A stretch of 64,000 nt of DNA, from assembly GCA_964016885.1 (NCBI GenBank), contig OZ024740.1, positions 430,962,001 to 431,026,000 of the forward strand. The letters are read 5' to 3'. Below the pieces are notes generated by a model. It was not told the origin of the DNA. It saw only the letters and a program-made list of their open reading frames with translations, and searched no databases. The translations under genes were made by a program, and so were the position numbers. Numbering within the stretch: the stretch's first letter is position 1; each line of letters begins with the position of its first letter. This DNA is from Eledone cirrhosa (taxonomy: Eukaryota). Positions 1 through 64,000 of this stretch are shown here, piece after piece.

Positions 1-3000
1 GCAGATGATATAGTGTTACTTAACTTAGCAGATGATATAGTCTTACTTAACCAGCAGATAATATAGTGTTACTTAACTGAGCAGATGATATAGTGTTACT
101 TAACTGAGCAGATGATATAGTGTTACTTAACTGAGCAGATGATATAGTGTTACTTAACTTAGCAGATGATATAGTGTTACTTAACTTAGCAGATGATATA
201 GTGTTACTTAACTTAGCAGAAGATATAATGTTACTTAACTTAGCAGATGATATAGTGTACTTAACTTAGCAGATGATATAGTGTTACTTAACTGAGCAGA
301 TGATATAATGTTACTTAACTGAGCAGATGATATAGTGTTACTTAACTTAGCAGATGATATAGTGTTACTTAACTGAGCAGATGATATAATGTTACTTAAC
401 TTAGCAGAAGATATAGTGTTACTTATCTTAGCAGATGATATAGTGTTTCTTAACTTAGCAGATAATATAGTGTTACTTAACTTAGCAGATGATATAATGT
501 TACTTAACTTAGCAGATGATATAGTGTTACTTAACTTAGCAGATGATATAGTGTTACTTAACTTAGCAGATGATATAGTGTTACTTAACTGAGCAGATGA
601 TATAATGTTACTTAACTTAGCAGAAGATATAGTGTTACTTAACTTAGCAGATGATATAGTGTTACTTAACTTAGCAGATGATATAGTGTTACTTAACTGA
701 GCAGATGATATAATGTTACTTAACTTAGCAGAGGATATAGTGTTACTTAACTTAGCAGAAGATATAATGTTTCTTAACTTAGCAGATGATATAGTGTTAC
801 TTAACTTAGCAGATGATATACTGTTACTTAACTGAGCAGATGATATAATGTTACTTAACTGAGCAGATGATATAATGTTACTTAACTTAGCAGAGGATAT
901 AGTGTTACTTAACTTAGCAGAAGATATAATGTTACTTAACTTAGCAGATGATATAGTGTTACTTAACTTAGCAGATGATATACTGTTACTTAACTGAGCA
1001 GATGATATAGTGTTACTTAACTGAGCAGATGATATAATGTTACTTAACTGAGCAGATGATATAGTGTTACTTAACTGAGCAGATGATATAATGTTACTTA
1101 ACTGAGCAGATGATATAGTGTTACTTAGCTTAGCAGATGATATACTGTTACTTAACTTAGCAGATGATATAATGTTACTTAACTGAGCAGATGATATAGT
1201 GTTACTTAACTTAGCAGATGATATAGAGTTACTTAACTGAGCAGATGATATAATGTTACTTAACTTAGCAGATGATATAGTGTTACTTAACTTAGCAGAT
1301 GATATAGTGTTACTTAACTTAGAAGATGATATAGTGTTACTTAACTCAGCAGAAAATATGGTGTTACTTAACTTAGCAGATAATATAGTGTTACTTAACT
1401 GAGCAGATGATATAATGTTACTTAACTTAGCAGATGATATAGTGTAACTTAACTTAGCAGATGATATAGTGTTACTTAACTGAGCAGATGTTATAGTGTT
1501 ACTTAACTGAGCAGATGATATAATGTTACTTAACTTAGCAGATGATATGGTGTTACTTAACTTAGCAGATGATATAATGTTACTTAACTTAGCAGATGAT
1601 ATAGTGTTACTTAACTCAGCAGATGATATAGTGTTACTTAACTGAGCAGATGTTATAGTGTTATTTAACTTAGCAGACGATATAATGTTACTTAACTGAC
1701 GAGATGTTATAGTGTTACTTAACTTAGCAGATGATATAGTGTTACTTAACTTAGCAGATGATATAGTGTTACTTAACTTAGCAGAAGATATAATGTTACT
1801 TAACTTAGCAGATGATATAGTGTACTTAACTTAGCAGATGATATATCTTACTTAACTCAGCAGATGATATATTGTTACTTAACTTAGCAGATGATATAGT
1901 GTTACTTAACTTAGCAGATGATATAGTGTTACTTAACTGAGCAGATGTTATAGTGTTACTTAACTTAGCAGATGATTAGTGTTACTTAACTGAGGAGATG
2001 ATATAGTGTTACTCAACTTAGCAGATGATATAGTGTTACTTAAACTTAGCAGATGATATATGTTACTTAACTCAGCAGATGATATATTGTTACTTAACTG
2101 AGGAGATGATATAGTGTTACTTAACTGAGCAGATGATATAGTGTTACTTATCTGAGCAGATGATATAGTGTTACTTAACTTGGCAGATGATATGGTGTTA
2201 CTTAACTTAGCAGATGATATAATGTTACTTAACTCAGCAGAAGATATGGTGTTACTTAACTCAGCAGATGATATAATGTTACTTAACTGAGCAGATGATA
2301 TAATGTTACTTAACTTAGCAGATGATATAGTGTTACTTAACTGAGCAGATAATATAGTGTTACTTAACTTAGCAGAAAATATAATGTTACTTAACTTAGC
2401 AGATGATATAGTGTTACTTAACTTAGCAGATGATATACTGTTACTTAACTGAGCAGATGATATAGTGTTACTTAACTGAGCAGATGATATAATGTTACTT
2501 AACTGAGCAGATGATATAATGTTACTTAACTTAGCAGAGGATATAGTGTTACTTAACTTAGCAGAAGATATAATGTTACTTAACTTAGCAGATGATATAG
2601 TGTTACTTAACTTAGCAGATGATATACTGTTACTTAACTGAGCAGATGATATAGTGTTACTTAACTGAGCAGATGATTTAATGTTACTTAACTGAGCAGA
2701 TGATATAGAGTTACTTAACTGAGCAGATGATATAATGTTACTTAACTTAGCAGATGATATAGTGTTACTTAACTTAGCAGATGATATAGTGTTACTTAAC
2801 TGAGCAGATGTTATAGTGTTACTTAACTGAGCAGATGATATAATGTTACTTAACTTAGCAGATGATATGGTGTTACTTAACTTAGCAGATGATATAATGT
2901 TACTTAACTTAGCAGATGATATAGTGTTACTTAACTCAGCAGATGATATAGTGTTACTTAACTTAGCAGATGATATAGTTGTACTTAACTGAGCAGATGA

Positions 3001-6000
3001 TATAATGTTACTTAACTTAGCAGATGATATAGTGTTACTTAACTTAGCAGATGATATAGTGTTACTTAACTGAGCAGATGTTATAGTGTTATTTAACTTA
3101 GCAGATGATATAATGTTACTTAACTGACGAGATGTTATAGTGTTACTTAACTTAGCAGATGATATAGTGTTACTTAACTTAGCAGATGATATAGTGTTAC
3201 TTAACTTAGCAGAAGATATAATGTTACTTAACTTAGCAGATGATATAGTGTACTTAACTTAGCAGATGATATATGTTTCTTAACTCAGCAGATGATATAT
3301 TGTTACTTAACTTAGCAGATGATATAGTGTTACTTAACTTAGCAGATGATATAGTGTTACTTAACTGAGCAGATGTTATAGTGTTACTTAACTTAGCAGA
3401 TGATATAGTGTTACTTAACTGAGGAGATGATATAGTGTTACTTAACTTAGCAGATGATATAGTGTTACTTAAACCTAGCAGATGATATATGTTAATTAAC
3501 TCTGCAGATGATATATTGTTACTTAACTGAGGAGATGATATAGTGTTACTTAACTGAGCAGATGATATAGTGTTACTTAACTGAGCAGATGATATAGTGT
3601 TACTTAACTTGGCAGATGATATGGTGTTACTTAACTTAGCAGATGATATAATGTTACTTAACTCAGCAGAAGATATGGTGTTACTTAACTCAGCAGATGA
3701 TATAATGTTACTTAACTGAGCAGATGATATAATGTTACTTAACTTAGCAGATGATATAGTGTTACTTAACTTAGCAGATGATATAGTGTTACTTAATTTA
3801 GCAGATGATATAGTGTTACTTAACCAGCAGATGATATAGTGTTACTTAACTTAGCAGATGATATAGTGTTACTTAACTGAGCAGATAATATAGTGTTACT
3901 TAACTTAGCAGAAAATATAATGTTACTTAACTTAGCAGATGATATAGTGTTACTTAACTTAGCAGATGATATAGTGTTACTTAACTTAGCAGATGATATA
4001 GTGTTACTTAACTCAGCAGATGGTATAGTGTTACTTATCTTAGCAGATGATATAGTGTTACTTAACTTAGCAGATGATATAATGTTACTTAACTGAGCAG
4101 ATGATATAATGTTACTTAACTTAGCAGATGATATAGTGTTACTTAATTAAGTAGATGATATAGCGTTACTTAACCAGCAGATGATATAGTGTTACTTAAC
4201 TTAGCAGATAATATAGTGTTACTAAACTGAGCAGATAATATAGTGTTACTTAACTTAGCAGAAGATATAATGTTACTTAACTTAGCAGATGATATAGTGT
4301 TACTTAACTTAGCAGATAATATAGTGTTACTTAACCAGCAGATGATATAGTGTTACTTAACTTAGCAGATGATATAATGTTACTTAACTTAGCAGATGAT
4401 ATAGTGTTACTTAACTCAGCAGATGATATAGTGTTACTTAACTTAGCAGATGATATAGTGTTACTTAACTTAGCAGATGATATAGTGTTACTTAACTTAG
4501 CAGATGATATGGTGTTACTTAACTTAGCAGATGATATAGTGTTACTTAACTTAGCAGATGATATAGTGTTACTTAATCAGCAGATGATATAGTGTCACTT
4601 AACTTAGCAGATGATATAATGTTACTTAACTTAGCAGATGATATAGTGTTACTTAACTCAGCAGATGATATAGTGTTACTTAACTTAGCTGATGGTATAG
4701 TGTTACTTAACTTAGAAGATCATATAGTGTTACTTAACTTAGCAGAAGATATAATATTATTTAACTTAGCAGATGATATAGTGTTACTTAACTTAGCAGA
4801 AGATATAATGTTACTTAACTTAGCAGATGATATAGTGTTACTTAACTTAGCAGATGATATAGTGTTACTTAACTTAGCAGATGATATAGTGTTACTTAAC
4901 TCAGCAGATGGTAGAGTGTTACTTAACTTAGCAGATGATATAGTGTTACTTAACTTAGCAGATGATATAATGTTACTTAACTCAGCAGATGATATAGTGT
5001 TACGTAACTGAGCAGATGATATAGTGTTACTTAACTTAGCAGATGATATAGTGTTACTTAACTCAGCAGATGATATAGTGTTACTTAACTTAGCAGATGA
5101 TATAGTGTTACTTAACTTAGCAGATGATATAGTCTTACTTAACCAGCAGATAATATAGTGTTACTTAACTGAGCAGCTGATATAGTGTTACTTAACTGAG
5201 CAGATGATATAGTGTTACTTAACTGAGCAGATGATATAGTGTTACTTAACTTAGCAGATGATATAGTGTTACTTAACTTAGCAGATGATATAGTGTTAAT
5301 TAACTTAGCAGAAGATATAACGTTACTTAACTTAGCAGATGATATAGTGTACTTAACTTAGCAGATGATATATGTTACTTAACTCAGCAGATGATATATT
5401 GTTACTTAACTTAGCAGAAGATATAGTGTTACTTAACTTAGCAGATGATATAGTGTTACTTAACCAGCAGATGATATAGTGTTACTTAACTTAGCAGATG
5501 ATGTAATGTTACTTAACTGAGCAGATGATCTAGTGTTACTTAACTCAGCAGATGATATATGTTACTTAACTCAGCAGATGATATATTGTTACTTAACTTA
5601 GCAGATGATATAGTGTTACTTAACTTAGCAGATGGTATAGTGTTACTTAACTTAGCAGATGATATAGTCTTACTTAACCAGCAGATAATATAGTGTTACT
5701 TAACTGAGGAGATGATATAGTGTTACTTAACTAAGCAGATGATATAGTGTTACTTAACTGAGCAGATGATATAATGTTACTTAACTGAGCAGATGATATA
5801 ATGTTACTTAACTGAGCAGATGATATAGTGTTACTTAACTTAGCAGATGATATAGTGTTACTTAACTGAGGAGATGATATAGTGTTACTTAACTTAGCAG
5901 ATGATATAGTGTTACTAAAACTTAGCAGATGATATATGTTACTTAACTCAGCAGATGATATATTGTTACTTAACTTAGCAGATGGTATAGTGTTACTTAA

Positions 6001-9000
6001 CTTAGCAGATGATATAGTCTTACTTAACCAGCAGATAATATAGTGTTACTTAACTGAGGAGATGATATAGCGTTACTTAACTGAGCAGATGATATAGTGT
6101 TACTTAACTGAGCAGATGATATAATGTTACTTAACTTAGCAGATGATATAGTGTTACTTAACTTAGCAGATGATATAGTGTTACTTAACTCAGCAGATGG
6201 TATAGTGTTACTTAACTTAGCAGATGATATAATGTTACTTAACTTAGCAGATGATATAATGTTACTTAACTGAGCAGATGATATAATGTTACTTAACTTA
6301 GCAGATGATATAGTGTTACTTAATTTAGTAGATGATATAGTGTTACTTAACCAGCAGATGATATAGTGTTACTTAACTTAGCAGATAATATAGTGTTACT
6401 TAACTGAGCAGGTAATATAGTGTTACTTAACTTAGCAGAAGATATAATGTTACTTAACTTAGCAGATGATATAGTGTTACTTAACTTAGCAGATGACATA
6501 GTGTTACTTAACCAGCAGATGATATAGTGTTACTTAACTTAGCAGATGATATAATGTTACTTAACTGAGCAGATGATCTAGTGTTACTTAACTCAGCAGA
6601 TGATATAGTGTTACTTAACTTAGCAGATGATATAGTGTTACTTAACTTAGAAGATGATATAGTGTTACTTAACTTAGCAGATGATATAGTGTTACTTAAC
6701 TTAGCAGATGATATGGTGTTACTTAACTTAGCAGATGATATAGTGTTACTTAACTTAGCAGATGATATAGTGTTACTTAACTTAGCAGAAAATATAATGT
6801 TACTTAACTTAGCAGATGATATAGTGTTACTTAACTTAGCAGATGATATACTGTTACTTAACTGAGCAGATGATATAGTGTTACTTAACTGAGCAGATAA
6901 TATAGTGTTACTTAACTTAGCAAAAAATATAATGTTACTTAACTTAGCAGATGATATAGTGTTACTTAACTTAGCAGATGATATACTGTTACTTAACTGA
7001 GCAGATGATATAGTGTTACTTAACTGAGCAGATGATATAATGTTACTTAACTGAGCAGATGATATAATGTTACTTAACTTAGCAGAGGATATAGTGTTAC
7101 TTAACTTAGCAGAAGATATAATGTTACTTAACTTAGCAGATGATATAGTGTTACTTAACTTAGCAGATGATATACTGTTACTTAACTGAGCAGATGATAT
7201 AGTGTTACTTAACTGAGCAGATGATTTAATGTTACTTAACTGAGCAGATGATATAGAGTTACTTAACTGAGCAGATGATATAATGTTACTTAACTTAGCA
7301 GATGATATAGTGTTACTTAACTTAGCAGATGATATAGTGTTACTTAACTGAGCAGATGTTATAGTGTTACTTAACTGAGCAGATGATATAATGTTACTTA
7401 ACTTAGCAGATGATATGGTGTTACTTAACTTAGCAGATGATATAATGTTACTTAACTTAGCAGATGATATAGTGTTACTTAACTCAGCAGATGATATAGT
7501 GTTACTTAACTTAGCAGATGATATAGTTGTACTTAACTGAGCAGATGATATAATGTTACTTAACTTAGCAGATGATATAGTGTTACTTAACTTAGCAGAT
7601 GATATAGTGTTACTTAACTGAGCAGATGTTATAGTGTTATTTAACTTAGCAGATGATATAATGTTACTTAACTGACGAGATGTTATAGTGTTACTTAACT
7701 TAGCAGATGATATAGTGTTACTTAACTTAGCAGATGATATAGTGTTACTTAACTTAGCAGAAGATATAATGTTACTTAACTTAGCAGATGATATAGTGTA
7801 CTTAACTTAGCAGATGATATATGTTTCTTAACTCAGCAGATGATATATTGTTACTTAACTTAGCAGATGATATAGTGTTACTTAACTTAGCAGATGATAT
7901 AGTGTTACTTAACTGAGCAGATGTTATAGTGTTACTTAACTTAGCAGATGATATAGTGTTACTTAACTGAGGAGATGATATAGTGTTACTTAACTTAGCA
8001 GATGATATAGTGTTACTTAAACCTAGCAGATGATATATGTTAATTAACTCTGCAGATGATATATTGTTACTTAACTGAGGAGATGATATAGTGTTACTTA
8101 ACTGAGCAGATGATATAGTGTTACTTAACTGAGCAGATGATATAGTGTTACTTAACTTGGCAGATGATATGGTGTTACTTAACTTAGCAGATGATATAAT
8201 GTTACTTAACTCAGCAGAAGATATGGTGTTACTTAACTCAGCAGATGATATAATGTTACTTAACTGAGCAGATGATATAATGTTACTTAACTTAGCAGAT
8301 GATATAGTGTTACTTAACTTAGCAGATGATATAGTGTTACTTAATTTAGCAGATGATATAGTGTTACTTAACCAGCAGATGATATAGTGTTACTTAACTT
8401 AGCAGATGATATAGTGTTACTTAACTGAGCAGATAATATAGTGTTACTTAACTTAGCAGAAAATATAATGTTACTTAACTTAGCAGATGATATAGTGTTA
8501 CTTAACTTAGCAGATGATATAGTGTTACTTAACTTAGCAGATGATATAGTGTTACTTAACTCAGCAGATGGTATAGTGTTACTTATCTTAGCAGATGATA
8601 TAGTGTTACTTAACTTAGCAGATGATATAATGTTACTTAACTGAGCAGATGATATAATGTTACTTAACTTAGCAGATGATATAGTGTTACTTAATTAAGT
8701 AGATGATATAGCGTTACTTAACCAGCAGATGATATAGTGTTACTTAACTTAGCAGATAATATAGTGTTACTAAACTGAGCAGATAATATAGTGTTACTTA
8801 ACTTAGCAGAAGATATAATGTTACTTAACTTAGCAGATGATATAGTGTTACTTAACTTAGCAGATAATATAGTGTTACTTAACCAGCAGATGATATAGTG
8901 TTACTTAACTTAGCAGATGATATAATGTTACTTAACTTAGCAGATGATATAGTGTTACTTAACTCAGCAGATGATATAGTGTTACTAAAACTTAGCAGAT

Positions 9001-12000
9001 GATATAGTGTTACTTAACTTAGCAGATGATATAGTGTTACTTAACTTAGCAGATGATATGGTGTTACTTAACTTAGCAGATGATATAGTGTTACTTAACT
9101 TAGCAGATGATATAGTGTTACTTAATCAGCAGATGATATAGTGTCACTTAACTTAGCAGATGATATAATGTTACTTAACTTAGCAGATGATATAGTGTTA
9201 CTTAACTCAGCAGATGATATAGTGTTACTTAACTTAGCTGATGATATAGTGTTACTTAACTTAGAAGATCATATAGTGTTACTTAACTTAGCAGAAGATA
9301 TAATATTATTTAACTTAGCAGATGATATAGTGTTACTTAACTTAGCAGAAGATATAATGTTACTTAACTTAGCAGATGATATAGTGTTACTTAACTTAGC
9401 AGATGATATAGTGTTACTTAACTTAGCAGATGATATAGTGTTACTTAACTCAGCAGATGGTAGAGTGTTACTTAACTTAGCAGATGATATAGTGTTACTT
9501 AACTTAGCAGATGATATAATGTTACTTAACTCAGCAGATGATATAGTGTTACGTAACTGAGCAGATGATATAGTGTTACTTAACTTAGCAGATGATATAG
9601 TGTTACTTAACTCAGCAGATGATATAGTGTTACTTAACTTAGCAGATGATATAGTGTTACTTAACTTAGCAGATGATATAGTCTTACTTAACCAGCAGAT
9701 AATATAGTGTTACTTAACTGAGCAGCTGATATAGTGTTACTTAACTGAGCAGACTATATAGTGTTACTTAACTGAGCAGATGATATAGTGTTACTTAACT
9801 TAGCAGATGATATAGTGTTACTTAACTTAGCAGATGATATAGTGTTACTTAACTTAGCAGAAGATATAACGTTACTTAACTTAGCAGATGATATAGTGTA
9901 CTTAACTTAGCAGATGATATATGTTACTTAACTCAGCAGATGATATATTGTTACTTAACTTAGCAGAAGATATAGTGTTACTTAACTTAGCAGATGATAT
10001 AGTGTTACTTAACCAGCAGATGATATAGTGTTACTTAACTTAGCAGATGATATAATGTTACTTAACTGAGCAGATGATCTAGTGTTACTTAACTCAGCAG
10101 ATGATATATGTTACTTAACTCAGCAGATGATATATTGTTACTTAACTTAGCAGATGATATAGTGTTACTTAACTTAGCAGATGGTATAGTGTTACTTAAC
10201 TTAGCAGATGATATAGTCTTACTTAACCAGCAGATAATATAGTGTTACTTAACTGAGGAGATGATATAGTGTTACTTAACTAAGCAGATGATATAGTGTT
10301 ACTTAACTGAGCAGATGATATAATGTTACTTAACTGAGCAGATGATATAATGTTACTTAACTGAGCAGATGATATAGTGTTACTTAACTTAGCAGATGAT
10401 ATAGTGTTACTTAACTGAGGAGATGATATAGTGTTACTTAACTTAGCAGATGATATAGTGTTACTAAAACTTAGCAGATGATATATGTTACTTAACTCAG
10501 CAGATGATATATTGTTACTTAACTTAGCAGATGGTATAGTGTTACTTAACTTAGCAGATGATATAGTCTTACTTAACCAGCAGATAATATAGTGTTACTT
10601 AACTGAGGAGATGATATAGCGTTACTTAACTGAGCAGATGATATAGTGTTACTTAACTGAGCAGATGATATAATGTTACTTAACTTAGCAGATGATATAG
10701 TGTTACTTAACTTAGCAGATGATATAGTGTTACTTAACTCAGCAGATGGTATAGTGTTACTTAACTTAGCAGATGATATAATGTTACTTAACTTAGCAGA
10801 TGATATAATGTTACTTAACTGAGCAGATGATATAATGTTACTTAACTTAGCAGATGATATAGTGTTACTTAATTTAGTAGATGATATAGTGTTACTTAAC
10901 CAGCAGATGATATAGTGTTACTTAACTTAGCAGATAATATAGTGTTACTTAACTGAGCAGGTAATATAGTGTTACTTAACTTAGCAGAAGATATAATGTT
11001 ACTTAACTTAGCAGATGATATAGTGTTACTTAACTTAGCAGATGAGATAGTGTTACTTAACCAGCAGATGATATAGTGTTACTTAACTTAGCAGATGATA
11101 TAATGTTACTTAACTGAGCAGATGATCTAGTGTTACTTAACTCAGCAGATGATATAGTGTTACTTAACTTAGCAGATGATATAGTGTTACTTAACTTAGA
11201 AGATGATATAGTGTTACTTAACTTAGCAGATGATATAGTGTTACTTAACTTAGCAGATGATATGGTGTTACTTAACTTAGCAGATGATATAGTGTTACTT
11301 AACTTAGCAGATGATATAGTGTTACTTAATCAGCAGATGATATAGTGTTACTTAACTTAGCAGATGATATAATGTTACTTAACTTAGCAGATGATATAGT
11401 GTTACTTAACTCAGCAGATGATATAGTGTTACTTAACTTAGCAGATGATATAGTGTTACTTAACTTAGAAGATCATATAGTGTTACTTAACTTAGCAGAA
11501 GATATAATATTATTTAACTTAGTAGATGATATAGTGTTACTTAACTTAGCAGAAGATATAATGTTACTTAACTTAGCAGATGATATAGTGTTACTTAACT
11601 TAGCAGATGATATAGTGTTACTTAACTTAGCAGATGATATAGTGTTACTTAACTCAGCAGATAGTAGAGTGTTACTTAACTTAGCAGATGATATAGTGTT
11701 ACTTAACTTAGCAGATGATATAATGTTACTTAACTCAGCAGATGATATAGTGTTACTTAACTGAGCAGATGATATAGTGTTACTTAACTTAGCAGATGAT
11801 ATAGTGTTACTTAAATCAGCAGATGATATAGTGTTACTTAACTTAGCAGATGATATAGTGTTACTTAACTTAGCAGATGATATAGTCTTACTTAACCAGC
11901 AGATAATATAGTGTTACTTAACTGAGCAGATGATATAGTGTTACTTAACTGAGCAGATGATATAGTGTTAATTAACTGAGCAGATGATATAGTGTTACTT

Positions 12001-49570: not shown

Positions 49571-49699
49571 AAGGGATTCCTGAGGTTGATTTAATGACCA
49601 GTTGGTCAGTTGACAGCTAATAACAGTGGAGCGGTGTAAAGTTGGTACATTTTAATCCGGGTGGTTTCGACTGAATACTGACATCGCTGGATCAAATTA

Positions 49700-50140
49700 T
49701 GCCGGTCACAGTTTGAAGTTGCAAAATTTGGTGGCTGCTTTGTGTCAGTTTGCTCTATCTTGTTATTAAGCAATATTTTATGTAAATGCTAAAGGGTTCT
49801 TTTATAAGTCTGTCAGTAACATTTGGGGTTCATATACGAAATACAGAATTTAAGGATTCTTTGAAAGATAATAGTTTCTTACCAGTTCCATACACTGAAC
49901 ACTGCAGTTCCTGGGCCTTTGGATCACCCCACAATTCTGAAAAAATTGAAATCTTTATGGAGCAGCTCCATATTGCATAGTCTGCAGTGGGACATTCCCT
50001 TTCTGTAGGCCCTTACGTTCGATAACTTCGACCAGCTAATCTCATATTCCTGATTGATGTCCTTAAGCTGCCAGATTTTATTGGCCTGCGTCGTTGTATT
50101 CCCAAGTTTACGGTTTTTTATGGAGTGTCTGAAGCATATA
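49700..50140 (-). mobile_element. Penelope-like element fragment (C-terminal part of GIY-YIG endonuclease), decayed
   Basis: Minus strand FRHSIKNRKLGNTTTQANKIWQLKDINQEYEISWSKLSNVRAYRKGMSHCRLCNME fits the recalled PLE pattern T.LS..IW.LK......I.W......Y......C.LC..E. A LLNNKIE...SHQ remnant near 49730-49780 resembles LN.R.E....C.H. Confidence 0.7.
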
Positions 50141-50149
50141 GACAATATG

Positions 50150-50437
50150 CCCCCACACCCTTCCACTGTAAAGTGGTCGTGGAGGTGCCACGGCAAAAAA
50201 GCATCCAGCCCACACTGTAAAGTGGATGTGTAGGTGCCACGGAAAAAAAGCAACCACCACTCACTGTAAATGAGGTTGGTGTTAGGAAGGGCATCCACCT
50301 GTAGAAATCAAACCAGAATCAGTTCCCGTATGAGCAAGACAGGGTCAGCCGACCGGACACTACCTACAACAGGACAACCCGTCTAACCCATGCTAGCATG
50401 GAAGAAGGGACGTAAAACGATGATGATGATGATGATG
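50150..50437 (+). mobile_element. 3' portion of a second SINE family ending in (GAT)n
   Basis: ggtgccacgg-aaaaaagc, ggttggtgttaggaagggcatcca, ccgtctaacccatgctagcatggaa...gacgtaaaacgatgatgatgatgatgatg. Resembles octopus SINE 3' ends from recall. Confidence 0.7.
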
Positions 50438-50580
50438 TTTAAACTTTTAAGATACTTCTGAATTTATATTTTATTTTTGCATTTGTCTATTTTCTATGAT
50501 GACTGTGTCTATGCACATACCATCTTTTTTTTAAATCGCCAGCCTTAGAACCAATGTAGTGGCATGCTAGGTTGCCAGAT

Positions 50581-50621
50581 TTGATAGTGCACAGGTATAC
50601 TATGTACCTGTGCACTATCAA
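50581..50621. other. Perfect 17-bp inverted repeat with 7-nt spacer
   Basis: ttgatagtgcacaggta-tactatg-tacctgtgcactatcaa. Confidence 0.9.
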
Positions 50622-50640
50622 GGGCCGAAAGACTTCTCTG

Positions 50641-50842
50641 AAGACCTTCTTGCTCGAAGCCTACTCCTGGGCCTACAGGCAGTTGATTTTACCTGTAAAT
50701 CTGTTCAGCAATTCTTTCTTGAGACATTTTAACTAAATACCTGTAATATCAGAGGTGTGTACTCTCAATTCAGAGAGGTAGCGGCTCTACATGAAGTGAG
50801 TTTGCCCTTCAGAAGAAACCCATTTCAACTGCTTATATTTAC
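50641..50842 (-). mobile_element. RTE fragment of the same family as 44233-44940, inverted and internally deleted
   Basis: Reverse complement aligns to ~44600-44855: tcacttcatgtagagccgctacctctctgaattgagag vs tcactccaggtagaacccctacttctctgaattgagag, and cccaggagtaggcttcgagcaagaaggt vs cccaggggtaggcctcgagcaagatggt. Translation I*AVEMGFF*R. Confidence 0.85.
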
Positions 50843-51059
50843 AAGGGCCTGTTACCATGTGGGAACACAGGAAGGACCCCACTATTTTTCAATGGTCTAC
50901 CCATAAATTTAGAGGTTATGATTATAGTCTTATTCTGAAACTGTGCCTTAGAATTATCATGGATAAGAGTGTCCACCTGGAATGTTCTGAAGCTGTTATC
51001 GAGCTCCAAATCCTTGTGATGGGCCTGGGGTGTTCTTGATCAGGTTTGTCTGGGTTCTG

Positions 51060-54000: not shown

Positions 54001-56548
54001 GGTGTCTGTTTGTCATGTCTACCTGGGGTCTGTTTTTCAGTCCTACCTGGGGTCTGTTTGTCAGGTCTATCTGGGGTCTGTTTGTCAGTCCTACCTGGGG
54101 TCTGTTTGTCAGTCCTACCTGGGGTGTGTTTGTCAGGTCTACCTGGGGTCTGTTTGTCAGGTCTACTGGAGTCTGTTTGTCAGGTCTACTGGGGTCTGTT
54201 TGTCAGGTCTACCTGGGGTCTGTTTGTCAGTCCTACCTGGGGTATGTTTGTCAGTCCTACCTGGGATCTGTTTGTCAGGTCTACTGGGGTCTCTTTGTCA
54301 GGTCTACTGGGGTCTGTTTGTCAGGTCTACTGGGGTCTGTTTGTCAGGTCTACCTGGGGTCTGTTTGTCAGTCCTACCTGGGGTCTGTTTGTCAGGTCTA
54401 CTGGGGTCTGTTTGTAAGATCTACCTGGGGTCTGTTTCTCAGGTCTACCTGGGGTCTCTTTGTCAGGTCTACATGGGGCCTGTCTGTCAGTCCTACCTGG
54501 GGTCTGTTTGTCAGTCCTACCTGGGGTCTGTTTGTCAGGTCAACCTGGGGTCTGTCTGTCAGGTCTACCTGGGGTCTGTTTGTCAGATCTACCTGGGGTC
54601 TGTTTGTCAGTCCTACCTGGGGTCTGTTTGTAAGGTCTACCTGGGGTCTGTTTGTCAGGTCGCCCTGGGGTCTGTCTGTCAGTCCTACCTGGGGTCTGTT
54701 TGTCAGGTCTACCTGGGGTCTGTTTGTCAGTCCTACCTGGGGTCTGTTTGTCAGGTCTATCTGGGGTCTGTCTGTCAGTCCTACCTGGGGTCTGTTTGTC
54801 AGGTCTACTGGGGTCTGTTTGTCAGGTCTACCTGGGGTCTGTTTCTCAGGTCTACCTGGGGTCTGTTTGTCAGGTCTACCTGGGGTCTGTCTGTCAGTCC
54901 TACCTGGGGTCTGTTTGTCAGTTCGACCTGGGGTCTGTTTGTCAGGTCTTCCTGGGGTCTGTTTGTCAGTCCTACCTGGGGTCTGTTTGTCAGTCCTACC
55001 TGGGGTCTGTTTGTCAGGTCTACCTGGGGTCTGTTTGTCAGTCCTACCTGGGGTCTGTTTGTCAGGTCTACCTGGGATCTGTTTGTCAGTCCCAACTGCG
55101 GTCTGTCTGTCAGTCCTACCTGTGGTCTGTCTGTCAGTCCTACCTGGGGTCTGTCTGTCAGTCCTACCTGGCGTCTGTTTGTCAGGTCTACCTGGGGTCT
55201 GTTTGTCAGGTCTACCTGGGGTCTGTTTGTCAGGTCTACCTGGGGTCTGTTTGTCAGGTCTACCTGGGGTCGGTTTGTCAGTCTTACCTGTGGTCTCTTT
55301 GTCAGGTCTACCTGGGGTCTGTTTCTCAGGTCTACCTGGGGTCTGTTTGTCAGTCCTACCTGGGGTCTGTTTGTCAGTCCTACCTGGGGTCTGTTTGTCA
55401 GTCCTACCTGGGGTCTGTCTGTCAGTCCTACCTGTGGTCTGTTTGTCAGTCCTACCTGAGGTCTGTCTGTCAGGTCAACCTGGGGTCTTTTTGTCAGGTC
55501 TACCTGGGGTCTGTTTGTCAGGTCTACCTGGGGTCTGTCTGTCAGTCCTACCTGGGGTCTGTCTGTCAGTCCTACCTGGGGTCTGTTTGTCAGTCCTACC
55601 TGGGGTCTGTTTCTCAGGTCTACCTGGGGTCTGTCTATCAGTCCTACCTAGGGTCTGTCTGTCAGATCTACCTGGGGTCTGTTTGTCAGTCCTATCTGGG
55701 GTCTGTTTGTCAGTCCTACCTGGGGTCTGTTTGTCAGGTCTACCTGGGGTCTGTTTGTCAGTCCTACCTGGGGTCTGTTTGTCAGGTCTACCTGGGGTCT
55801 GTTTGTCAGTCCTACCTGGGGTCTGTTTGTCAGGTCTACCTGGGGTCTGTTTATCAGTCCTACCTGGGGTCTGTTTGTCAGGTCTACCTGGGGTCTGTTT
55901 GTCAGGTCTACCTGGGGTCTGTCTGTCAGGTCACCTGGGGTCTGTCTGTCAGTCCTACCTGGCGTCTGTTTGTCAGTCGTACCTGGGGTCTGTTTGTCAG
56001 GTCTACCTGGGGTCTGTCTGTCAGGTCACCTGGGGTCTGTCTGTCAGTCCTACCTGGCGTCTGTCTGTCAGTCCTACCTGGGGTCTGTTTGTCAGTCCTA
56101 CCTGGGGTCTGTTTCTCAGGTCTAACTGGGATCTGTTTGTCAGTCCTACCTGGGGTCTGTTTGTCAGTCCTACCTGGGGTCTGTTTGTCAGGTCTAACTG
56201 GGATCTGTTTGTCAGTCCTACCTGGGGTCTGTTTGTCAGTCCTACCTGGGGTCTGTTTGTCAAGTCTAACTGGGATCTGTTTGTCAGTCCTACCTGGGGT
56301 CTGTTTGTCAGTCCTACCTGGGGTCTGTTTGTCAGTCCTACTTGGGGTTTGTTTCTCAGCTCTACCTGGGGTCTGTTTCTCAGCTCTACCTGGGGTCTGT
56401 TTGTCAGTCCTACTTGGGGTTTGTTTCTCAGCTCTACCTGGGGTCTGTTTGTCAGTCCTACCTGGGGTCTGTTTGTCAGTCCTACCTGGGGTCTGTTTGT
56501 CAGTCCTACCTGGGGACTGTCTGTCAGTCCTACCTTGCGTCTGTCTGT
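51060..56548 (+). repeat. 24-bp minisatellite (GTCAG[TC/GT]CTACCTGGGGTCTGT[T/C]T), ~230 copies
   Basis: Direct 24-bp periodicity. Two dominant variants, cagtcctacc and caggtctacc, with occasional 20-, 22- and 23-bp units. Confidence 0.98.
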
Positions 56549-56772
56549 TATGACGTTCTAGCAACTCTACCATTCTATATGACGTTCTAGCAACTCTACC
56601 ATTCTATATGACGTTCTAACAACTCTACCATTCTATCTGATGCTCTAACATCTCTACCATTCTATATGACGTTCTAGCAACTCTACCATTCTATCTGACG
56701 TTCTAGCAACTCTACCATTCTATCTGACGTTCTAACATCTCTACTATTCTATATGACGTTCTAGCAACTCTA
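56549..56772 (+). repeat. 29-bp minisatellite remnant (~7.5 copies), duplicate
   Basis: Copy of 46354-46577. Confidence 0.95.
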
Positions 56773-56791
56773 AGAGTTCACCACATCTAAC

Positions 56792-56958
56792 AATAATTGT
56801 TTCTACTTTTGGCACAAGGCCAGCAATTGCCCAGTGCATTACTGGTACTTTATTTTATCGACCTCGTAAGGATGAAAGGCAAAGTTAACCTCGGTGGGAT
56901 TTGAACTCAGAATGGAAAGGGCCGTAACTCTATGCATCAAAGCATGGCGTCCGACCCT
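56792..56958 (-). mobile_element. tRNA-derived SINE, duplicate
   Basis: Copy of 46597-46763. Confidence 0.85.
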
Positions 56959-57672
56959 TGTTTCACATCCGCTTTTCCTGCTAGTAAAGGTTGGACAATA
57001 ATAATAATAATAAAGATATGAACCTATATTCTTCAAGAAATCTATATGGGATGAACATCACCACCACTATCACCATCATCACAATCACCACCATAACCAT
57101 CATCACCACAATCATCATCATCATTGTTGTCTATTTTCCACACTATATTACCCCCTCAGTCATTACCAACATATTATTCCCAACACCAATACAAAGTCCT
57201 CTTTATATTCCACTAACCTACCTTCCTCTTGTCACATTTTCTACTTCGACATGTGACTAACATTCACCTTCTATATTTATTGACTCTAAATAATTTCCCA
57301 CAGTCAATTGTGATTACATCAGAGCCACAACAATAAACCCTGATCTTGATTTTTGTTTTCTAGTTTTCTTAACAAAGACATCAGAGTCGGATATTTTAAA
57401 GTCATTTAACATTGACACGTGAGCTTTGAAATACACATCCTACACACATAGCTACAGACAGTACATACACTACTAAACTACAGTCATTACCCACAATCGA
57501 GTATGACTTGGTAGTATATACCATGTTTTACTATACACATCCTACACACATAGCTACACTCATGACACACACATATTCACATAAGAATGAATAGCTTTTT
57601 ACATATATAAAAATATATCAACAAATAATTATGCCTGAATATATACACATTTCACATACATTGTATATATGG

Positions 57673-58445
57673 TAAATTCCCGAGATCGATGGACGAGTTC
57701 TCTCCAGCGGTCTCTGTCCTGCATCATCGCTGCTATGTCCTGCCTCTCCCAGAGACCAGTGCCTGTCCTTAGGGTATCAATATATGTCAACCTTGGTCTC
57801 CCTGTTCTAGTGTCTAGTGTGTCCGTGTAGGGGCTCCTACAGGAGCACTGAGTGCAGTGTCAACTCTGGATGTCGGTGAGCATGTCCAGCTAACCTCAGT
57901 CTCCTCTGTGTTACTTTCGAGCTGACATTTGGGAGGCTCCCGTACAGCTCTGAGTTCTTCATCCTCAGTGTATACTGATTAATTTTCAGAGCCATCCTCG
58001 GCATTCTCGTATAGCACCCATCCACCATCTGAGTGAGTTTCTTGGTCAGTGTCCAAGTCTCAGACCCGTACAGCAACACAGACTCCACTACAGCAATGAA
58101 GAGACGGATCTTCAGGTCTTTACAAAAGTCCGACTTCCACACCGATCTCAAGCTGCGGCACACTGCCAGGCTTTGGTCTTCCTCTCCATTACATCATCCT
58201 CTGTGTTCCCAATCTTTGCTCCCAGATACAGGGAGTCCTCAACCAACTCTAGCGGCTTCCCACCTACTTTCATAATCTTCTCTGGCATCTTAATATTCTC
58301 TACCAGATACTTTGTCTTAATCTCATTCATTCTCAACCCCACACTCATCGACACAGTCTCCACCTCCTGCATCAAATCTTCTGCCTCCTTCACAGTGTTT
58401 GTCACCAGAACTATGTTGTCAGGAAATTCAGCATCTGATATCTTT
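57673..58445 (-). mobile_element. Decayed RTE-like LINE fragment, duplicate
   Basis: Copy of 47478-48250. ORFs 57837-58163 and 58148-58405. Confidence 0.9.
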
Positions 58446-58829
58446 TATATATATATCTGATATATATGTAAGCTTATTAGCTATCATCAGCATCGTATAC
58501 CTTCCTGTCAGATGATTGAACGTCTGAAAGTATATACTTTCCTTATGCATATTAACAGCTGAGCAGCCTAATTTGCATATCGAGTGAGTTAGTTGGCCGG
58601 GGTACCGAAAACGATAAATGGAAAAGAATGAAATGAAATTTCATTTCTCAGTCTTAGTACGGCTGATACTTAAATATAAGTATGTATACATACATACATA
58701 TATGTATACAGGCGTACAGTAGTATGTATATATATATATACATACATGCACACATATATATATGTACGTATGGGTTTACCGAACATTTATTATAATGTTC
58801 GGTTTGTTTGTAAACAAACAGCCCGAATT

Positions 58830-58951
58830 AAGCCGTACAGTGTTCGGCAACCATCGTTGCCCTAATAGCTAAGAAGCTTGAAACTATTTCAACGTTCCTT
58901 TGTCAGTGTTGAACAAAAAGGCGACGATTGTTGCCGAACACTGTACGGCTT
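58830..58951. mobile_element. MITE-like inverted-repeat element, duplicate
   Basis: Copy of 48635-48756. Confidence 0.65.
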
Positions 58952-58965
58952 CATGACTTTACTTA

Positions 58966-59359
58966 AATAATTGTTTCTACTTTTGGCACAAGGCCAGCAA
59001 TTACCCAGTGCATTACTGGTACTTTATTTTATCGATCCCGTAAGGATGAAAGGCAAAGTTAACCTCGGCGGTATTTGAACTCAGAATGGCAAGGGCCATA
59101 ACTCTATGCTGCAAAGCATGGCGTCCGACCCTCTAGCGATACTGCCAATACCCCGCCCTTCGTCGAAGTAATAATTGTTTCTACTTTAGGCACAAGGCCA
59201 GCAATTACCCAGTGCATTACTGGTACTTTATTTTATCGATCCCGTAAGGATGAAAGGCAAAGTTAACCTCGGCGGTATTTGAACTCAGAATGGCAAGGGC
59301 CATAACTCTATGCTGCAAAGCATGGCGTCCGACCCTCTACCGATACTGCCAATCCACCA
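58966..59359 (-). mobile_element. Tandem SINE pair, duplicate
   Basis: Copy of 48771-49164. Confidence 0.87.
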
Positions 59360-59894
59360 AGTAATAATGGTGAGTAGGTAGATGTATAAAATACTAATGA
59401 CAGTAATGATAATAACATGAAAAGAAATATGATATACAATATATGATATGTGAAATGTTGGTCTCTTGTAGATTGGTGAGTTGAGGCCGTGCTAATATAG
59501 TGGATTGAATTCATGAATTGGCGAAATAAAAGTGATAAAAAATAATAAAGGATTAAAATAAAAAGTAAAAGAAAAAATAAAGAATAAGGATTCTAAGATA
59601 AAACATAAAAGATAGGAATGAAAATCAGAGAAGAGTAAATAGATAAATAGGGAATAAAAAGTAAAAGGGACAGTGATGATATGTAGGTGATTCAGGTAGG
59701 AGTAGATTGACTGTTTTATCTTAATAGAGGTGATAAGACTATAGAGAGAAAAGGAAAGAAAGGTTAAGGGATTCCTGAGGTTGATTTAATGACCAGTTGG
59801 TCAGTTGACAGCTAATAACAGTGGAGCGGTGTAAAGTTGGTACATTTTAATCCGGGTGGTTTCGACTGAATACTGACATCGCTGGATCAAATTA

Positions 59895-60335
59895 TGCCGG
59901 TCACAGTTTGAAGTTGCAAAATTTGGTGGCTGCTTTGTGTCAGTTTGCTCTATCTTGTTATTAAGCAATATTTTATGTAAATGCTAAAGGGTTCTTTTAT
60001 AAGTCTGTCAGTAACATTTGGGGTTCATATACGAAATACAGAATTTAAGGATTCTTTGAAAGATAATAGTTTCTTACCAGTTCCATACACTGAACACTGC
60101 AGTTCCTGGGCCTTTGGATCACCCCACAATTCTGAAAAAATTGAAATCTTTATGGAGCAGCTCCATATTGCATAGTCTGCAGTGGGACATTCCCTTTCTG
60201 TAGGCCCTTACGTTCGATAACTTCGACCAGCTAATCTCATATTCCTGATTGATGTCCTTAAGCTGCCAGATTTTATTGGCCTGCGTCGTTGTATTCCCAA
60301 GTTTACGGTTTTTTATGGAGTGTCTGAAGCATATA
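59895..60335 (-). mobile_element. Penelope-like GIY-YIG fragment, duplicate
   Basis: Copy of 49700-50140. Confidence 0.7.
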
Positions 60336-60344
60336 GACAATATG

Positions 60345-60632
60345 CCCCCACACCCTTCCACTGTAAAGTGGTCGTGGAGGTGCCACGGCAAAAAAGCATC
60401 CAGCCCACACTGTAAAGTGGATGTGTAGGTGCCACGGAAAAAAAGCAACCACCACTCACTGTAAATGAGGTTGGTGTTAGGAAGGGCATCCACCTGTAGA
60501 AATCAAACCAGAATCAGTTCCCGTATGAGCAAGACAGGGTCAGCCGACCGGACACTACCTACAACAGGACAACCCGTCTAACCCATGCTAGCATGGAAGA
60601 AGGGACGTAAAACGATGATGATGATGATGATG
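60345..60632 (+). mobile_element. SINE 3' portion with (GAT)n tail, duplicate
   Basis: Copy of 50150-50437. Confidence 0.7.
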
Positions 60633-60775
60633 TTTAAACTTTTAAGATACTTCTGAATTTATATTTTATTTTTGCATTTGTCTATTTTCTATGATGACTG
60701 TGTCTATGCACATACCATCTTTTTTTTAAATCGCCAGCCTTAGAACCAATGTAGTGGCATGCTAGGTTGCCAGAT

Positions 60776-60816
60776 TTGATAGTGCACAGGTATACTATGT
60801 ACCTGTGCACTATCAA
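60776..60816. other. 17-bp inverted repeat, duplicate
   Basis: Copy of 50581-50621. Confidence 0.9.
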
Positions 60817-60835
60817 GGGCCGAAAGACTTCTCTG

Positions 60836-61037
60836 AAGACCTTCTTGCTCGAAGCCTACTCCTGGGCCTACAGGCAGTTGATTTTACCTGTAAATCTGTT
60901 CAGCAATTCTTTCTTGAGACATTTTAACTAAATACCTGTAATATCAGAGGTGTGTACTCTCAATTCAGAGAGGTAGCGGCTCTACATGAAGTGAGTTTGC
61001 CCTTCAGAAGAAACCCATTTCAACTGCTTATATTTAC
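60836..61037 (-). mobile_element. RTE fragment, duplicate
   Basis: Copy of 50641-50842. Confidence 0.85.
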
Positions 61038-61254
61038 AAGGGCCTGTTACCATGTGGGAACACAGGAAGGACCCCACTATTTTTCAATGGTCTACCCATA
61101 AATTTAGAGGTTATGATTATAGTCTTATTCTGAAACTGTGCCTTAGAATTATCATGGATAAGAGTGTCCACCTGGAATGTTCTGAAGCTGTTATCGAGCT
61201 CCAAATCCTTGTGATGGGCCTGGGGTGTTCTTGATCAGGTTTGTCTGGGTTCTG

Positions 61255-64000
61255 TGTTGTCAGGTCTAACTGGGGTCTGTTTCTCAGGTCTACCTGGGGT
61301 CTGTTTCTCAGGTTTACCTGGGGTCTGTTTGTCAGTCCAACTTGGGGTCTGTCTGTCAGTCCTACCTGGGGTCTGTTTGTCAGGTCTACCTGGGGTCTGT
61401 TTCTCAGGTCTACCTGTGGTTTGTCTGTCAGGTCTACCTGGGGTCTGTTTGTCAGGTCTACCTGGGGTCTGACTGTCAGTCCTACCTGGGGTCTGTTTGT
61501 CAGTCCTACCTGGGGTCGCTTTGTCAAGTCTAGCTGCGGTCTGTTTCTCAGTTCTACTTGGGGTCTGTCTGTCAGTCCTACCTGGGGTCTCTTTGTCAGT
61601 CCTACCTGGGTTCTCTTTGTCAGTTCTACCTGGGATCTTCTTGATCAGGTTTGTCTAAGGTCTGTTCCTCAGGTCTACCTGGGGTCTGTTTGTCAGTCCT
61701 ACCTGGGGTCTGTTTGTCAGTCCTACCTAGGGTCTGTTTGTCAGTCCTACCTGGGGTCTGTCTGTCAGTCCTACCTGGGGTCTGTTTGTCAGTCCTACCT
61801 GGGGTCTGTTTGTCAGTCCTACCTGGGGTCTGTCTGTCAGGTCTACCTGGGGTCTGTCTGTCAGGTCTACCTGCGGTCTGTTTGTCAGGTCTACCTGGGG
61901 TCTGTTTTTCAGGTCTACCTGGGGTCTGTTTGTCAGTCCTACCTGGGGTCTGTCTGTCAGTCCTACCTGGGGTCTGTCTGTCAGTCCTACCTCGGGTCTG
62001 TTTCTAAGGTCTACCTGGGGTCTGTTTCTCAGGTCTACCTTGGTTCTGTTTGTCAGTCCTACCTGGGGTTTGTTTGTCAGTCCTACCTGGGGTCTGTCTG
62101 TCAGGTCTACCTGGGGTTTGTTTGTCAGGTCTACCTGGGGTCTGTTTGTCAGGTCTACCTGGGGTCTGTCTGTCAGTCCTATCTGGGGTCTGTCTGTCAG
62201 TTCTACCTGGGGTCTGTTTGTCAGTCCTACCTGGGGTCTGTTTGTCAGGTCTACCTGGGGTCTGTCTGTCAGTCCTACCTGGGGTCTGTTTGTCAGTCCT
62301 ACCAGGGGTCTGTTTGTCAGGTCTACCTGGGGTCTGTCTGTCAGTCCTACCTGGGGTCTGTTTGTCAGGTCTACCTGGGGTCTGTCTGTCAGTCCTATCT
62401 GGGGTCTGTCTGTCAGTCCTACCTGGGGTCTGTTTGTCAGTCCTACCAGGGGTCTGTTTGTCAGGTCTACCTGGGGTCTGTCTGTCAGTCCTACCTGGGG
62501 TCTGTCTGTCAGTCATACCTGGGGTCTGTTTGTCAGTCCTACCTGGGGTCTGTCTGTTAGTCCTACCTGGGGTCTGTTTCTCAGCTCTAACTGGGGTCTG
62601 TTTGTCAGTCCTACCTGGGATCTGTTTGTCAGTCCTACCTGGGGTCTGTCTGTCAGTCCTTCCTCGGGTCTGTTTCTCATGTCTACCTGGGGTCTGTTTC
62701 TCAGCTCTACCTGGGGTCTGTCTGTCAGTCCTACCTGGCGTTTGTTTGTCAGTCCTACATGGGGTCTGTCTGTCAGTCCTTCCTCGGGTCTGTTTCTCAT
62801 GTTTACCTGGGGTCTGTTTCTCAGCTCTACCTGGGGTCTGTCTGTCAGTCTTACCTGGGGTCTGTTTGTCAGTCATACCTGGGGTCTGTTTGTCAGTCCT
62901 ACCTGGGGTCTGTCTGTCAGTCCTACCTGGGTTCTGTCTGTCAGTCCTACCTGGGGTCTGTTTGTAAGTCCTACCTGGGGTCTGTTTCTCAGGTCTACCT
63001 GGGGTCTGTCTATCAGTCCTACCTGGGGTCTGTCTGTCAGATCTACCTGGGGTCTGTTTGTCAGTCCTATCTGGGGTCTGTTTGTCAGTCCTACCTGGGG
63101 TCTGTCTGTTAGTCCTACCTGGGGTCTGTTTGTCAGGTCTACCTGGGGTCTGTCTGTCAGATCTACCTGGGGTCTGTCTGTCAGTCCTACCTGGGGTCTG
63201 TTTGTCAGTCCTACCTGGGGTCTGTTTCTCAGGTCTACCTGGGGTCTGTTTGTCAGTCCTACCTGTGGTCTGTCTGTCAGGTCAACCTGGGGTCTTTTTG
63301 TCTGGTCTATCTGGGGTCTGTTTGTCAGGTCTACCTGGGGTCTGTTTGTCAGGTCTACCTGGGGTCTGTCTGTCATTCCTATCTGGGGTCTGTCTGTCAG
63401 TCCTACTTGGGGTCTGCTTGTCAGTCCTACCTGGGGTCTGTTTCTCATGTCTACCTGGGGTCTGTTTCTCAGCTCTACCTGGGGTCTGTCTGTCAGTCCT
63501 ACCTGGGGTCTGTTTGTCAGTCATACCTGGGGTCTGTTTCTCAGGTCTACCTGGGATCTGTTTGTCAGTCCTACCTGGGGTCTGTTCGTCAGTCCTACCT
63601 GGGGTCTGTTTGTCAGGTCTACCTGGGGACTGTCTGTCAGTCCTACCTGCGGTCTACATGTCAGTCCTACCTGGGGTCGGTTTGTCAGTCCTACCTGGGG
63701 ACTGTCCTTCAGTCCTACCTGGCGTCTGTCTGTTAGTCCTACCTGGGGTCTGTTTCTCAGGTCTACCTGGGGTCTGTTTGTCAGTCCTACCTGGGGTCTG
63801 TTTGTCAGTCTTACCTGGGATCTGTTTGTCAGTCCTACCTGGGGTCTGTCAGTCCTACCTGGGGTCTGTCTGTCAGTCCTACCTGGGGTCTGTTTGTCAG
63901 TCCTACCTGGGGTCTGTTTCTCATGTCTACCTGGTGTCTGTCTGTCAGTCCTACCTGGGGTCTGTTTGTCAGTCCTACCTGGGGGCTGTTTCTAACGTCT
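61255..64000 (+). repeat. 24-bp minisatellite, duplicate (open at right window edge)
   Basis: Copy of 51060-53805 including rare variants. Confidence 0.98.

What the first reader, a model, noticed from the sequence alone, without database searches (positions are those of the whole stretch)
1..64000. Recurrent pattern: tandem arrays seeded inside retroelements at all stages (a satellite 'nursery')
Seen within ~12 kb: a 25-bp 2-copy duplication in the RTE (44735-44779), a 49-bp ~2.3-copy repeat in a SINE (50164-50275), a ~51-copy 29-bp repeat from a SINE head, a ~230-copy 24-bp array ~220 bp from the 5' side of an RTE fragment, and the ~1,640-copy 27-bp RT-motif array. The three large arrays have similar unit sizes (24-29 bp), and each lies at or toward the 5' side of the associated element, where cDNA synthesis finishes. 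Inference: one process may generate them. Candidates are reiterative, telomerase-like template slippage during target-primed reverse transcription, or a lineage-specific slippage/repair process acting after insertion.
Basis: partly seen in the sequence, partly recalled or inferred. Interest (0 to 1): 0.8.

Follow-up and report, generated by a model that had tools for sequence, protein, structure and literature searches.

The report
Genome-wide minisatellite nursery, SINE-head hotspots
This animal genome turns short stretches of almost any DNA into long tandem arrays, which fill about a sixth of the sampled sequence, and the start of one small mobile element (a SINE) is repeated in this way at hundreds of separate places; the arrays likely grow by DNA repair and recombination after insertion rather than by reverse-transcriptase slippage.

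Summary
The arrays are real, but the retroelement-only, RT-slippage reading fails for most. The 27-bp array (162 kb, ~6,000 units, one locus) lies inside a decayed RTE copy with RT sequence on both sides and carries fixed copy-specific changes, so it grew after insertion. The 24-mer is single-locus DNA beside a non-RTE repeat. The 49-mer is built into its SINE family. The 25-bp 'duplication' is a templated insertion. In 99 evenly spaced 10-kb regions, minisatellites cover 17% of bases; 10 of 40 testable arrays match a dispersed repeat, against 195 of 400 random points, and some sit in DNA-transposon-like elements. One part holds: the 5′ head of one SINE is duplicated in two fixed registers, 29 bp (86 loci) and 45 bp (275 matches), almost only on small chromosomes and distal arms. 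Growth there is DNA-level (units 3.7% vs SINE bodies 12.8% diverged). How the first extra unit arose (RT jump, dimeric master, or ectopic conversion) is open. Verdict: a strong new variant of TE-derived minisatellites.

The parts
1..44232 (+). 3′ part of a 27-bp array (whole array 162,425 bp, about 6,016 units, single locus); the monomer is the codons of the RT 'ADD(I/M)VLLN(S/L)' stretch of an RTE-type LINE, and the array lies inside that LINE copy
44233..44890 (+). 3′ part of the decayed host RTE-type LINE (8.6% from the majority of 11 other copies); about 310 bp of its RT region lie upstream of the array, outside the window
44735..44779 (+). about 20-bp templated insertion replacing about 4 bp (period 25, two differences between copies), absent from 11 of 11 other copies
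44935..45099 (-). body of a tRNA-like SINE (my label SINE-A, minor head type)
45100..46577 (-). 29-bp x51 array made from the A-box arm of the SINE-A head; a diverged SINE 5′ terminus follows at about 46578-46590; same register at 86 loci genome-wide
46354..56548 (+). first copy of a 10,195-bp exact tandem duplication with breakpoints inside the 29-bp and 24-bp arrays
56549..64000 (+). second copy of the 10,195-bp duplication (0 mismatches over 7,452 bp); all repeats of 46354-53805 recur here
48771..49158 (-). two head-to-tail SINE-A copies (204-bp period, main head type, single heads)
50129..50430 (+). 5′-truncated SINE-like element with a (GAT)n tail (my label SINE-B); its 49-bp internal repeat (50164-50270) is a family feature
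50644..50844 (-). RTE 3′ fragment; homology stops at 50844
50844..51029 (.). old 150-190-bp dispersed repeat, not RTE, with weak inverted ends (7-9 of 13); class unproven, DNA-transposon-like by recall
51030..56548 (+). 24-bp array seeded in DNA next to that repeat's end; far flank is found only at this locus; no significant match to RTE

Best explanation
The arrays are minisatellites drawn from retroelements, DNA-transposon-like elements and unique DNA alike, and they likely grow after insertion by DNA-level copying (slippage, templated repair, unequal exchange), most often in distal arms and small chromosomes. Step 1, seed: any short direct repeat will do. It may be a repair-made duplication or templated insertion (inferred for the 27-mer, the 24-mer and 44735-44779), a repeat built into the element (shown for SINE-B), or a duplicated SINE-A head whose origin is open. 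Step 2, growth: units are copied in blocks long after insertion (shown by fixed private changes, multi-site haplotypes recurring in non-adjacent units, and exact kb-scale repeats). Step 3: arrays act as breakpoints for larger local duplications (shown for the 10,195-bp copy and an older 3.5-kb copy). The link to recombination rate is inferred from position only.
For: 27-mer: RT sequence on both sides of the array; position 9 is T in 99.2% of 5,265 units but C in 7 of 7 family copies, position 12 is A in 96.2% but G in 6 of 7; exact 400-mers recur at lags of 1.8-8 kb, and likewise in the 24-, 69- and 58-bp arrays. 29-mer: units 3.7% from their own majority vs SINE bodies 12.8%, in 18 of 18 usable loci of 27. 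45-mer: non-CpG variants shared between units in 9 of 14 arrays of 6 or more units. Class: 10 of 40 arrays vs 195 of 400 control points match a dispersed repeat (region-matched 50 of 118, Fisher p=0.06); distal sample 10 of 20 vs 150 of 300. Of the 20 matched arrays, by inspection 12 are retro (9 SINE-B built-in, 2 SINE-A head, 1 possible LINE), 5 DNA-transposon-like and 3 unclassified; L273 has 10 of 13 inverted ends and an exact 8-bp target duplication. Of 8 arrays in the 100 kb downstream, 2 start at TTAACCCTT ends and none of the 8 matched an RT element. Only 1 of 13 region-filling monomers beats the reversed control. Position: 47 of 73 arrayed 29-mer loci lie within 10 Mb of an end (15% expected; 8 of 37 other head copies) and 1 of 73 in the interior of the four large chromosomes; 7 of the first 100 45-mer matches are interior, against 46% of the genome.
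Against: In the unbiased regions, all 4 SINE-A-derived arrays of 2.8 or more copies include the 5′ head, as an RT model predicts. In 9 of 24 fetched 45-mer loci the outermost unit is cut short while inner units are complete, so the first extra unit was not copied from the local head (by eye). Target-site duplications of 12 bp or more enclose SINE plus array in 9 of 23 loci (no chance control, AT-rich). 45-mer units (about 1-6%) are about as diverged as their bodies (mean 4.3%). 15 of 27 29-mer arrays share one derived monomer absent from 24 of 24 single heads, which independent local seeding does not explain. Giant arrays are not distal: 7 of 13 region-filling arrays are interior. The dispersed-repeat library was only 0.99 Mb, so rarer TEs are missed. 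No recombination map was available.
Confidence: 0.7

Rival explanations
1. Ectopic gene conversion seeds the SINE-head arrays: a broken single-head SINE in a recombining region is repaired from an arrayed paralogue and gains its inner units while keeping its own body, outermost unit and target duplication. This complements the best explanation at step 1.
For: Same derived monomer on many chromosomes (15 of 27) with no body clade (identity arrayed-arrayed 0.74, arrayed-single 0.77, single-single 0.80); last unit often family-like; the same 45-bp junction on bodies of two head subfamilies (L305, L282); distal bias even for 2-unit loci; 0 29-bp arrays among 34 heads in a 200-kb distal grid, where 3.5-6 are expected if monomers had diverged like bodies (P=0.03-0.002 under my simple model).
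Against: Indirect. Pattern searches favour monomers close to the query. Body comparison used about 95 columns and included truncated copies. No conversion tract was mapped.
Confidence: 0.35
2. The partner LINE's reverse transcriptase makes the first extra head unit(s): at or near the RNA 5′ end it jumps back 29 or 45 nt, or a master SINE with a doubled head is retrotransposed. Later growth is DNA-level.
For: Fixed registers at the 5′ head at 86 loci and 275 matches; target duplications around SINE plus array; complete inner units beside truncated outer units; young bodies; AA and AG junctions mixed within 5 of 24 arrays.
Against: Retrotransposed seeds should follow single heads into chromosome interiors: single heads of the same subfamily occur 11 times in 53 interior regions vs 16 in 46 others, yet only 7 of 100 listed 45-mer loci are interior. 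The 29-bp register is common in the rarer head type and scarce in the commoner one (20 of 20 further single hits fetched were not duplications), so it depends on sequence.
Confidence: 0.3
3. One telomerase-like RT slippage during target-primed reverse transcription makes all the long arrays at the 5′ side of retroelements.
For: Two of the three large arrays in the window have retroelement monomers.
Against: The 27-mer is internal, 162 kb long and carries fixed copy-specific changes; the 24-mer has no significant RTE match (p=0.30-0.34, far flank p=0.07); 40 of 60 testable arrays match no dispersed repeat; arrays occur in DNA-transposon-like elements.
Confidence: 0.04
4. Part of the picture is assembly artefact: the exact 10,195-bp copy and some kb-scale exact repeats inside arrays may be falsely duplicated.
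For: Zero mismatches over 7,452 bp; no listed public contig bridges the 56548/56549 junction by 31 bp on each side.
Against: The junction is a novel join of two arrays, an older 97.8%-identical copy with similar array breakpoints lies nearby, and unit diversity, distinct flanks and dozens of unrelated monomers cannot come from misassembly. This affects array lengths, not their existence or origin.
Confidence: 0.15

Closest known systems
TE-derived minisatellites of the human genome (Ahmed and Liang 2012, PMC3389668; parts 1-3 of 4 read)
   Same: Monomers collinear with a TE; about 23% of minisatellites TE-derived there, 25% (10 of 40) here; growth by local duplication after insertion; built-in repeats (LTR12, L1PA) carried by transposition like SINE-B; hot regions within a SINE (AluS); the authors also suspect retrotransposition helps initiate repeats.
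   Different: There most have 2-3 units and total about 0.32% of the genome, with no genomic hotspot seen; here arrays reach 162 kb, cover 17% of sampled bases, and the SINE-head registers recur at hundreds of distal loci.
Satellites from the tRNA-related region of SINEs (Hy/Pol III, Xenopus satellite 1), from LINE-1 ORF2 (PROsat, Pvc20) and from MITEs (Xstir, miDNA4), as tabulated in Zattera and Bruschi 2022 (PMC9659126; passages, table rows and section 4 read)
   Same: Same source regions: SINE tRNA-like head, LINE ORF2, MITE ends; DSB repair and unequal exchange proposed as mechanism.
   Different: Those are listed as single satellite families per species; here many unrelated monomers each form a locus-specific array, and SINE-head arrays stay inside separate insertions with their own flanks.
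Subtelomeric VNTR enrichment in human (Linthorst et al. 2020, PMC7608644; passages read)
   Same: Arrays with units over 15 bp are enriched near chromosome ends, attributed to recombination.
   Different: Human enrichment is for GC-rich VNTRs; here the distal bias is shown for SINE-head arrays of moderate GC, while the giant arrays are also interior.
Multimeric tRNA-derived SINEs and tandem 5′ promoter monomers of rodent L1 (recalled, not checked)
   Same: Repeated promoter-bearing units at the 5′ end of a retroelement.
   Different: Here unit number varies from 2 to more than 53 between loci and most copies of the family have one head.

Membership tests
TE-derived minisatellite/satellite | Monomer is 70% or more like the collinear part of a TE, or the array overlaps a TE | tested here: met
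   27-mer and 29-mer; 49-mer
TE-derived minisatellite/satellite | Same test for the 24-mer | tested here: not met
   best 17 of 24 vs reversed control 18 of 24; collinear test p=0.30-0.34; far flank single-locus
TE-derived minisatellite/satellite | Growth by local duplication after insertion | tested here: met
RT-slippage (TPRT) product | Array at the 5′ truncation point of the element | tested here: not met
   27-mer internal; met only for the SINE-A head
RT-slippage (TPRT) product | Units equal the source element and are as old as the insertion | tested here: not met
   27-mer fixed private changes; 29-mer units younger in 18 of 18; 45-mer inconclusive
RT-slippage (TPRT) product | Restricted to or enriched in retroelements | tested here: not met
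RT-slippage (TPRT) product | Present already in new insertions or made by the RT in vitro | not testable with these tools
   no orthologues or relatives held for this genome
Non-LTR (RTE-type) retrotransposon as host of the 27-mer | Reverse transcriptase domain | tested here: met
   Pfam RVT_1 in a family copy, E=1.8e-8 above cut-off, and E=2.2e-4 over the ADD region; none for the window's own fragments
Non-LTR (RTE-type) retrotransposon as host of the 27-mer | RTE clade placement | not tested
   label rests on recalled motif likeness; no tree built
tRNA-derived SINE (SINE-A) | Short, high copy, target-site duplications | tested here: met
   215 profile hits in 0.99 Mb; target duplications
tRNA-derived SINE (SINE-A) | tRNA-like head with A and B boxes | tested here: inconclusive
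   box-like motifs by eye (sequences); ARAGORN 0 genes; no Rfam tRNA match
hAT-like MITE left of the 24-mer | Terminal inverted repeats and 8-bp target duplication | tested here: inconclusive
   6-9 of 13 inverted match, flanks 1-4 of 8

The most novel reading that the evidence does not exclude
SINE heads in this genome carry an 'infectious' minisatellite: a 29-bp or 45-bp promoter-arm repeat, the latter with one telomere hexamer at most junctions, spreads among existing SINE copies on recombining chromosome ends by ectopic conversion, or is first written by an RT that re-copies the RNA 5′ end, within a genome where about a sixth of the DNA is locus-specific satellite.
Probability: 0.35. Interest if true: 0.75.

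Novelty: new variant of a known kind. Interest (0 to 1): 0.52.

Why it matters
How minisatellites start is a long-standing open question: the human survey could explain only 6% of TE-derived cases (PMC3389668). This genome offers hundreds of replicate births of the same array in one SINE position, at every size from 2 units up, inside dated insertions with target duplications, plus internal controls (a second head type, DNA-transposon and unique seeds). That makes seed timing and the role of recombination directly testable. It also suggests tandem DNA is a major, probably under-assembled part of this genome type. I found no paper on it in searches (open-access library only; subscription literature not searched).

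Tried and rejected
24-mer as the RTE's continuation past the inserted repeat: a tempting gapped likeness, not above shuffles. A 29-bp register in the main SINE-A head: 337 motif matches, but 20 of 20 further single hits and 6 of 8 first loci were single heads followed by a chance or target-site CATGG; only a handful of true arrays were seen in the 100 rows listed. A simple higher-order period in the 27-mer: none. Rfam and ARAGORN: only AT-repeat microRNA matches below gathering score, no tRNA. Pfam on the window's own RT fragments: no family for the host copy; Atlas gave unnamed clusters and a 14% RVT_1 lead. A second distal grid on other small chromosomes was not obtained, so the distal unbiased sample is one 4-Mb region. 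Earlier findings: none. Paper searches returned nothing. PMC6962438 (passages) reports about 0.89% satellites, simple and low-complexity repeats in a squid draft, which is not comparable in method. Supplements of the cited papers were not read.
Full report
Observation. TRF finds every array at the stated place: 27 bp x1644 (1-44232), 29 bp x51 (45100-46577), 49 bp x2.2 (50164-50270), 24 bp x230 (51050-56548). The window lies 12 Mb from the end of a 443-Mb contig in a 3.0-Gb genome. The SINEs recall octopod elements; that is memory, untested, and was used only to aim paper searches. SINE-A and SINE-B are my labels.

The 27-mer. It matches the ADD-motif codons of an RT family at 20-24 of 27 bases in 6 of the 7 copies that hold the stretch, out of 11 fetched; a family copy has Pfam RVT_1. 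The array extends 162,425 bp. Of 617 pattern matches, all on one strand, 100 are listed in its upstream part and 513 lie in the stretch I held, so it is one locus. Upstream of it lie about 310 bp of the same RT, from FVDLEK to ESADD, with deletions. The array is therefore inside the element, not at a 5′ truncation. Two positions are fixed for copy-specific bases (T in 99.2% of 5,265 units vs C in 7 of 7 family copies; A in 96.2% vs G in 6 of 7), in line with the host's 8.6% divergence, and exact 400-mers recur at 1.8-8 kb. Growth came after insertion, in blocks.

The small cases. The 25-bp feature is a 20-bp copy of downstream sequence replacing about 4 bp, absent in 11 of 11 copies; this resembles templated insertions of end-joining repair (my knowledge; one search found no paper), and its age cannot be told from the insertion's. 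The 49-mer is in 38 of 38 other scored SINE-B copies (chosen by likeness to the window copy), so it is inherited; it is also the commonest single source of arrays in my samples, 9 of 60.

The 24-mer. The RTE fragment ends at 50844. A different old repeat with weak inverted ends fills 50844-51029, and the array starts at its end. The far flank occurs only at this locus, 7 local copies. The monomer matches RTE no better than controls.

Background. In 99 evenly spaced 10-kb regions, minisatellites of 4 or more copies cover 17% of bases and fill 13 regions entirely. For the 40 arrays with an edge in view, 10 had unit plus flank matching a dispersed repeat elsewhere, against 195 of 400 random points and 50 of 118 region-matched points. 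In a distal grid the figures were 10 of 20 and 150 of 300. Of the 20 matched arrays, 12 are retro, 5 DNA-transposon-like and 3 unclassified by inspection; one has inverted ends and an exact 8-bp target duplication. The library was small, so rare TEs are missed, equally for arrays and controls.

What survives: the SINE-A head. The 29-mer is the A-box arm, 21-28 of 29 identical in 17 of 19 copies. The start of such an array is found 95 times (control 0), 86 loci after dropping 9 rows internal to listed arrays. In 30 fetched loci unit numbers run from 2 to more than 53, flanks differ except in one pair, and about 20 of the 22 whose far end was reached keep the SINE terminus. A second, 45-bp register gives 275 matches. 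Both avoid chromosome interiors: 1 of 73 loci on contigs of known length, and 7 of the first 100 rows; loci cluster, so p-values overstate (44 clusters, 1 interior). Growth is again DNA-level: units are 3.7% from their own majority vs 12.8% for bodies in 18 of 18 usable loci (9 of 27 dropped for short arrays or truncated bodies), and multi-site haplotypes recur in non-adjacent units.

The seed is open. Inner 45-bp units are complete where 9 of 24 outermost units are cut short, and target duplications enclose SINE plus array in 9 of 23. Fifteen of 27 29-mer arrays share a derived monomer seen in 0 of 24 single heads, yet their bodies show no sign of a clade. An RT jump or doubled-head master explains the first points but not the distal bias. 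Ectopic conversion from arrayed paralogues explains all of them but is untested. The queries favour similar monomers; the distal grid, with 0 29-bp arrays among 34 heads, limits but does not remove this bias.

Comparison. TE-derived minisatellites, hot regions in a SINE, built-in repeats and gradual local growth are described for human (PMC3389668). Satellites from SINE tRNA regions, LINE ORF2 and MITEs are tabulated in PMC9659126, and subtelomeric VNTR enrichment in PMC7608644. This case works like those and meets their definition for the 27-, 29- and 49-mers. It differs in scale and in the replicate, fixed-register head arrays. Searches found no description for cephalopods in the open library.

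Verdict. Observation partly confirmed, interpretation partly supported. New variant of a known kind, interest 0.52; the conversion or RT-jump seeding of SINE heads would merit 0.75 at a probability of about 0.35.

Noticed in passing
window 46354-56548 and 56549-64000+: Exact 10,195-bp tandem duplication with both breakpoints in arrays; an older 3.5-kb, 97.8%-identical copy with array breakpoints lies at window+101311-104799.
   Followed up: partly
L283-L306; 275 matches genome-wide: A second SINE-A head register of 45 bp; most listed junctions read as one exact telomere hexamer (one base from the templated form), and TTAGGG arrays cap 4 of 20 contig ends checked. Chance is not excluded.
   Followed up: partly
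L104, L114, L116, L117, L121, L124, L142, L160, L193, L195, L229, L230, L232: 13 of 99 evenly spaced 10-kb regions are wholly one array, each with a different monomer of 19-227 bp.
   Followed up: partly
window+61245-97905 (L013-L016): The 24-mer array is interrupted by five identical blocks of a short unique piece plus a CAC repeat, copied with it at kb scale.
   Followed up: no
window+129041-164000 (L019-L022): A 69-bp array (252 units) abuts a 58-bp array (311+ units) with 2 bp between; neither matches a dispersed repeat in the sample.
   Followed up: partly
window 47444-48251: Second decayed RT fragment on the minus strand, a different family from the host of the 27-mer.
   Followed up: partly
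L239, L241-L243, L246: SINE-A often inserts at the tail of another SINE-A, which explains the 204-bp pair at 48771-49158.
   Followed up: partly
L226, L264, L277, window+109651: A 70-72-bp stretch next to a TTAACCCTT end is arrayed at four independent places, a DNA-transposon-like counterpart of the SINE hotspot.
   Followed up: partly
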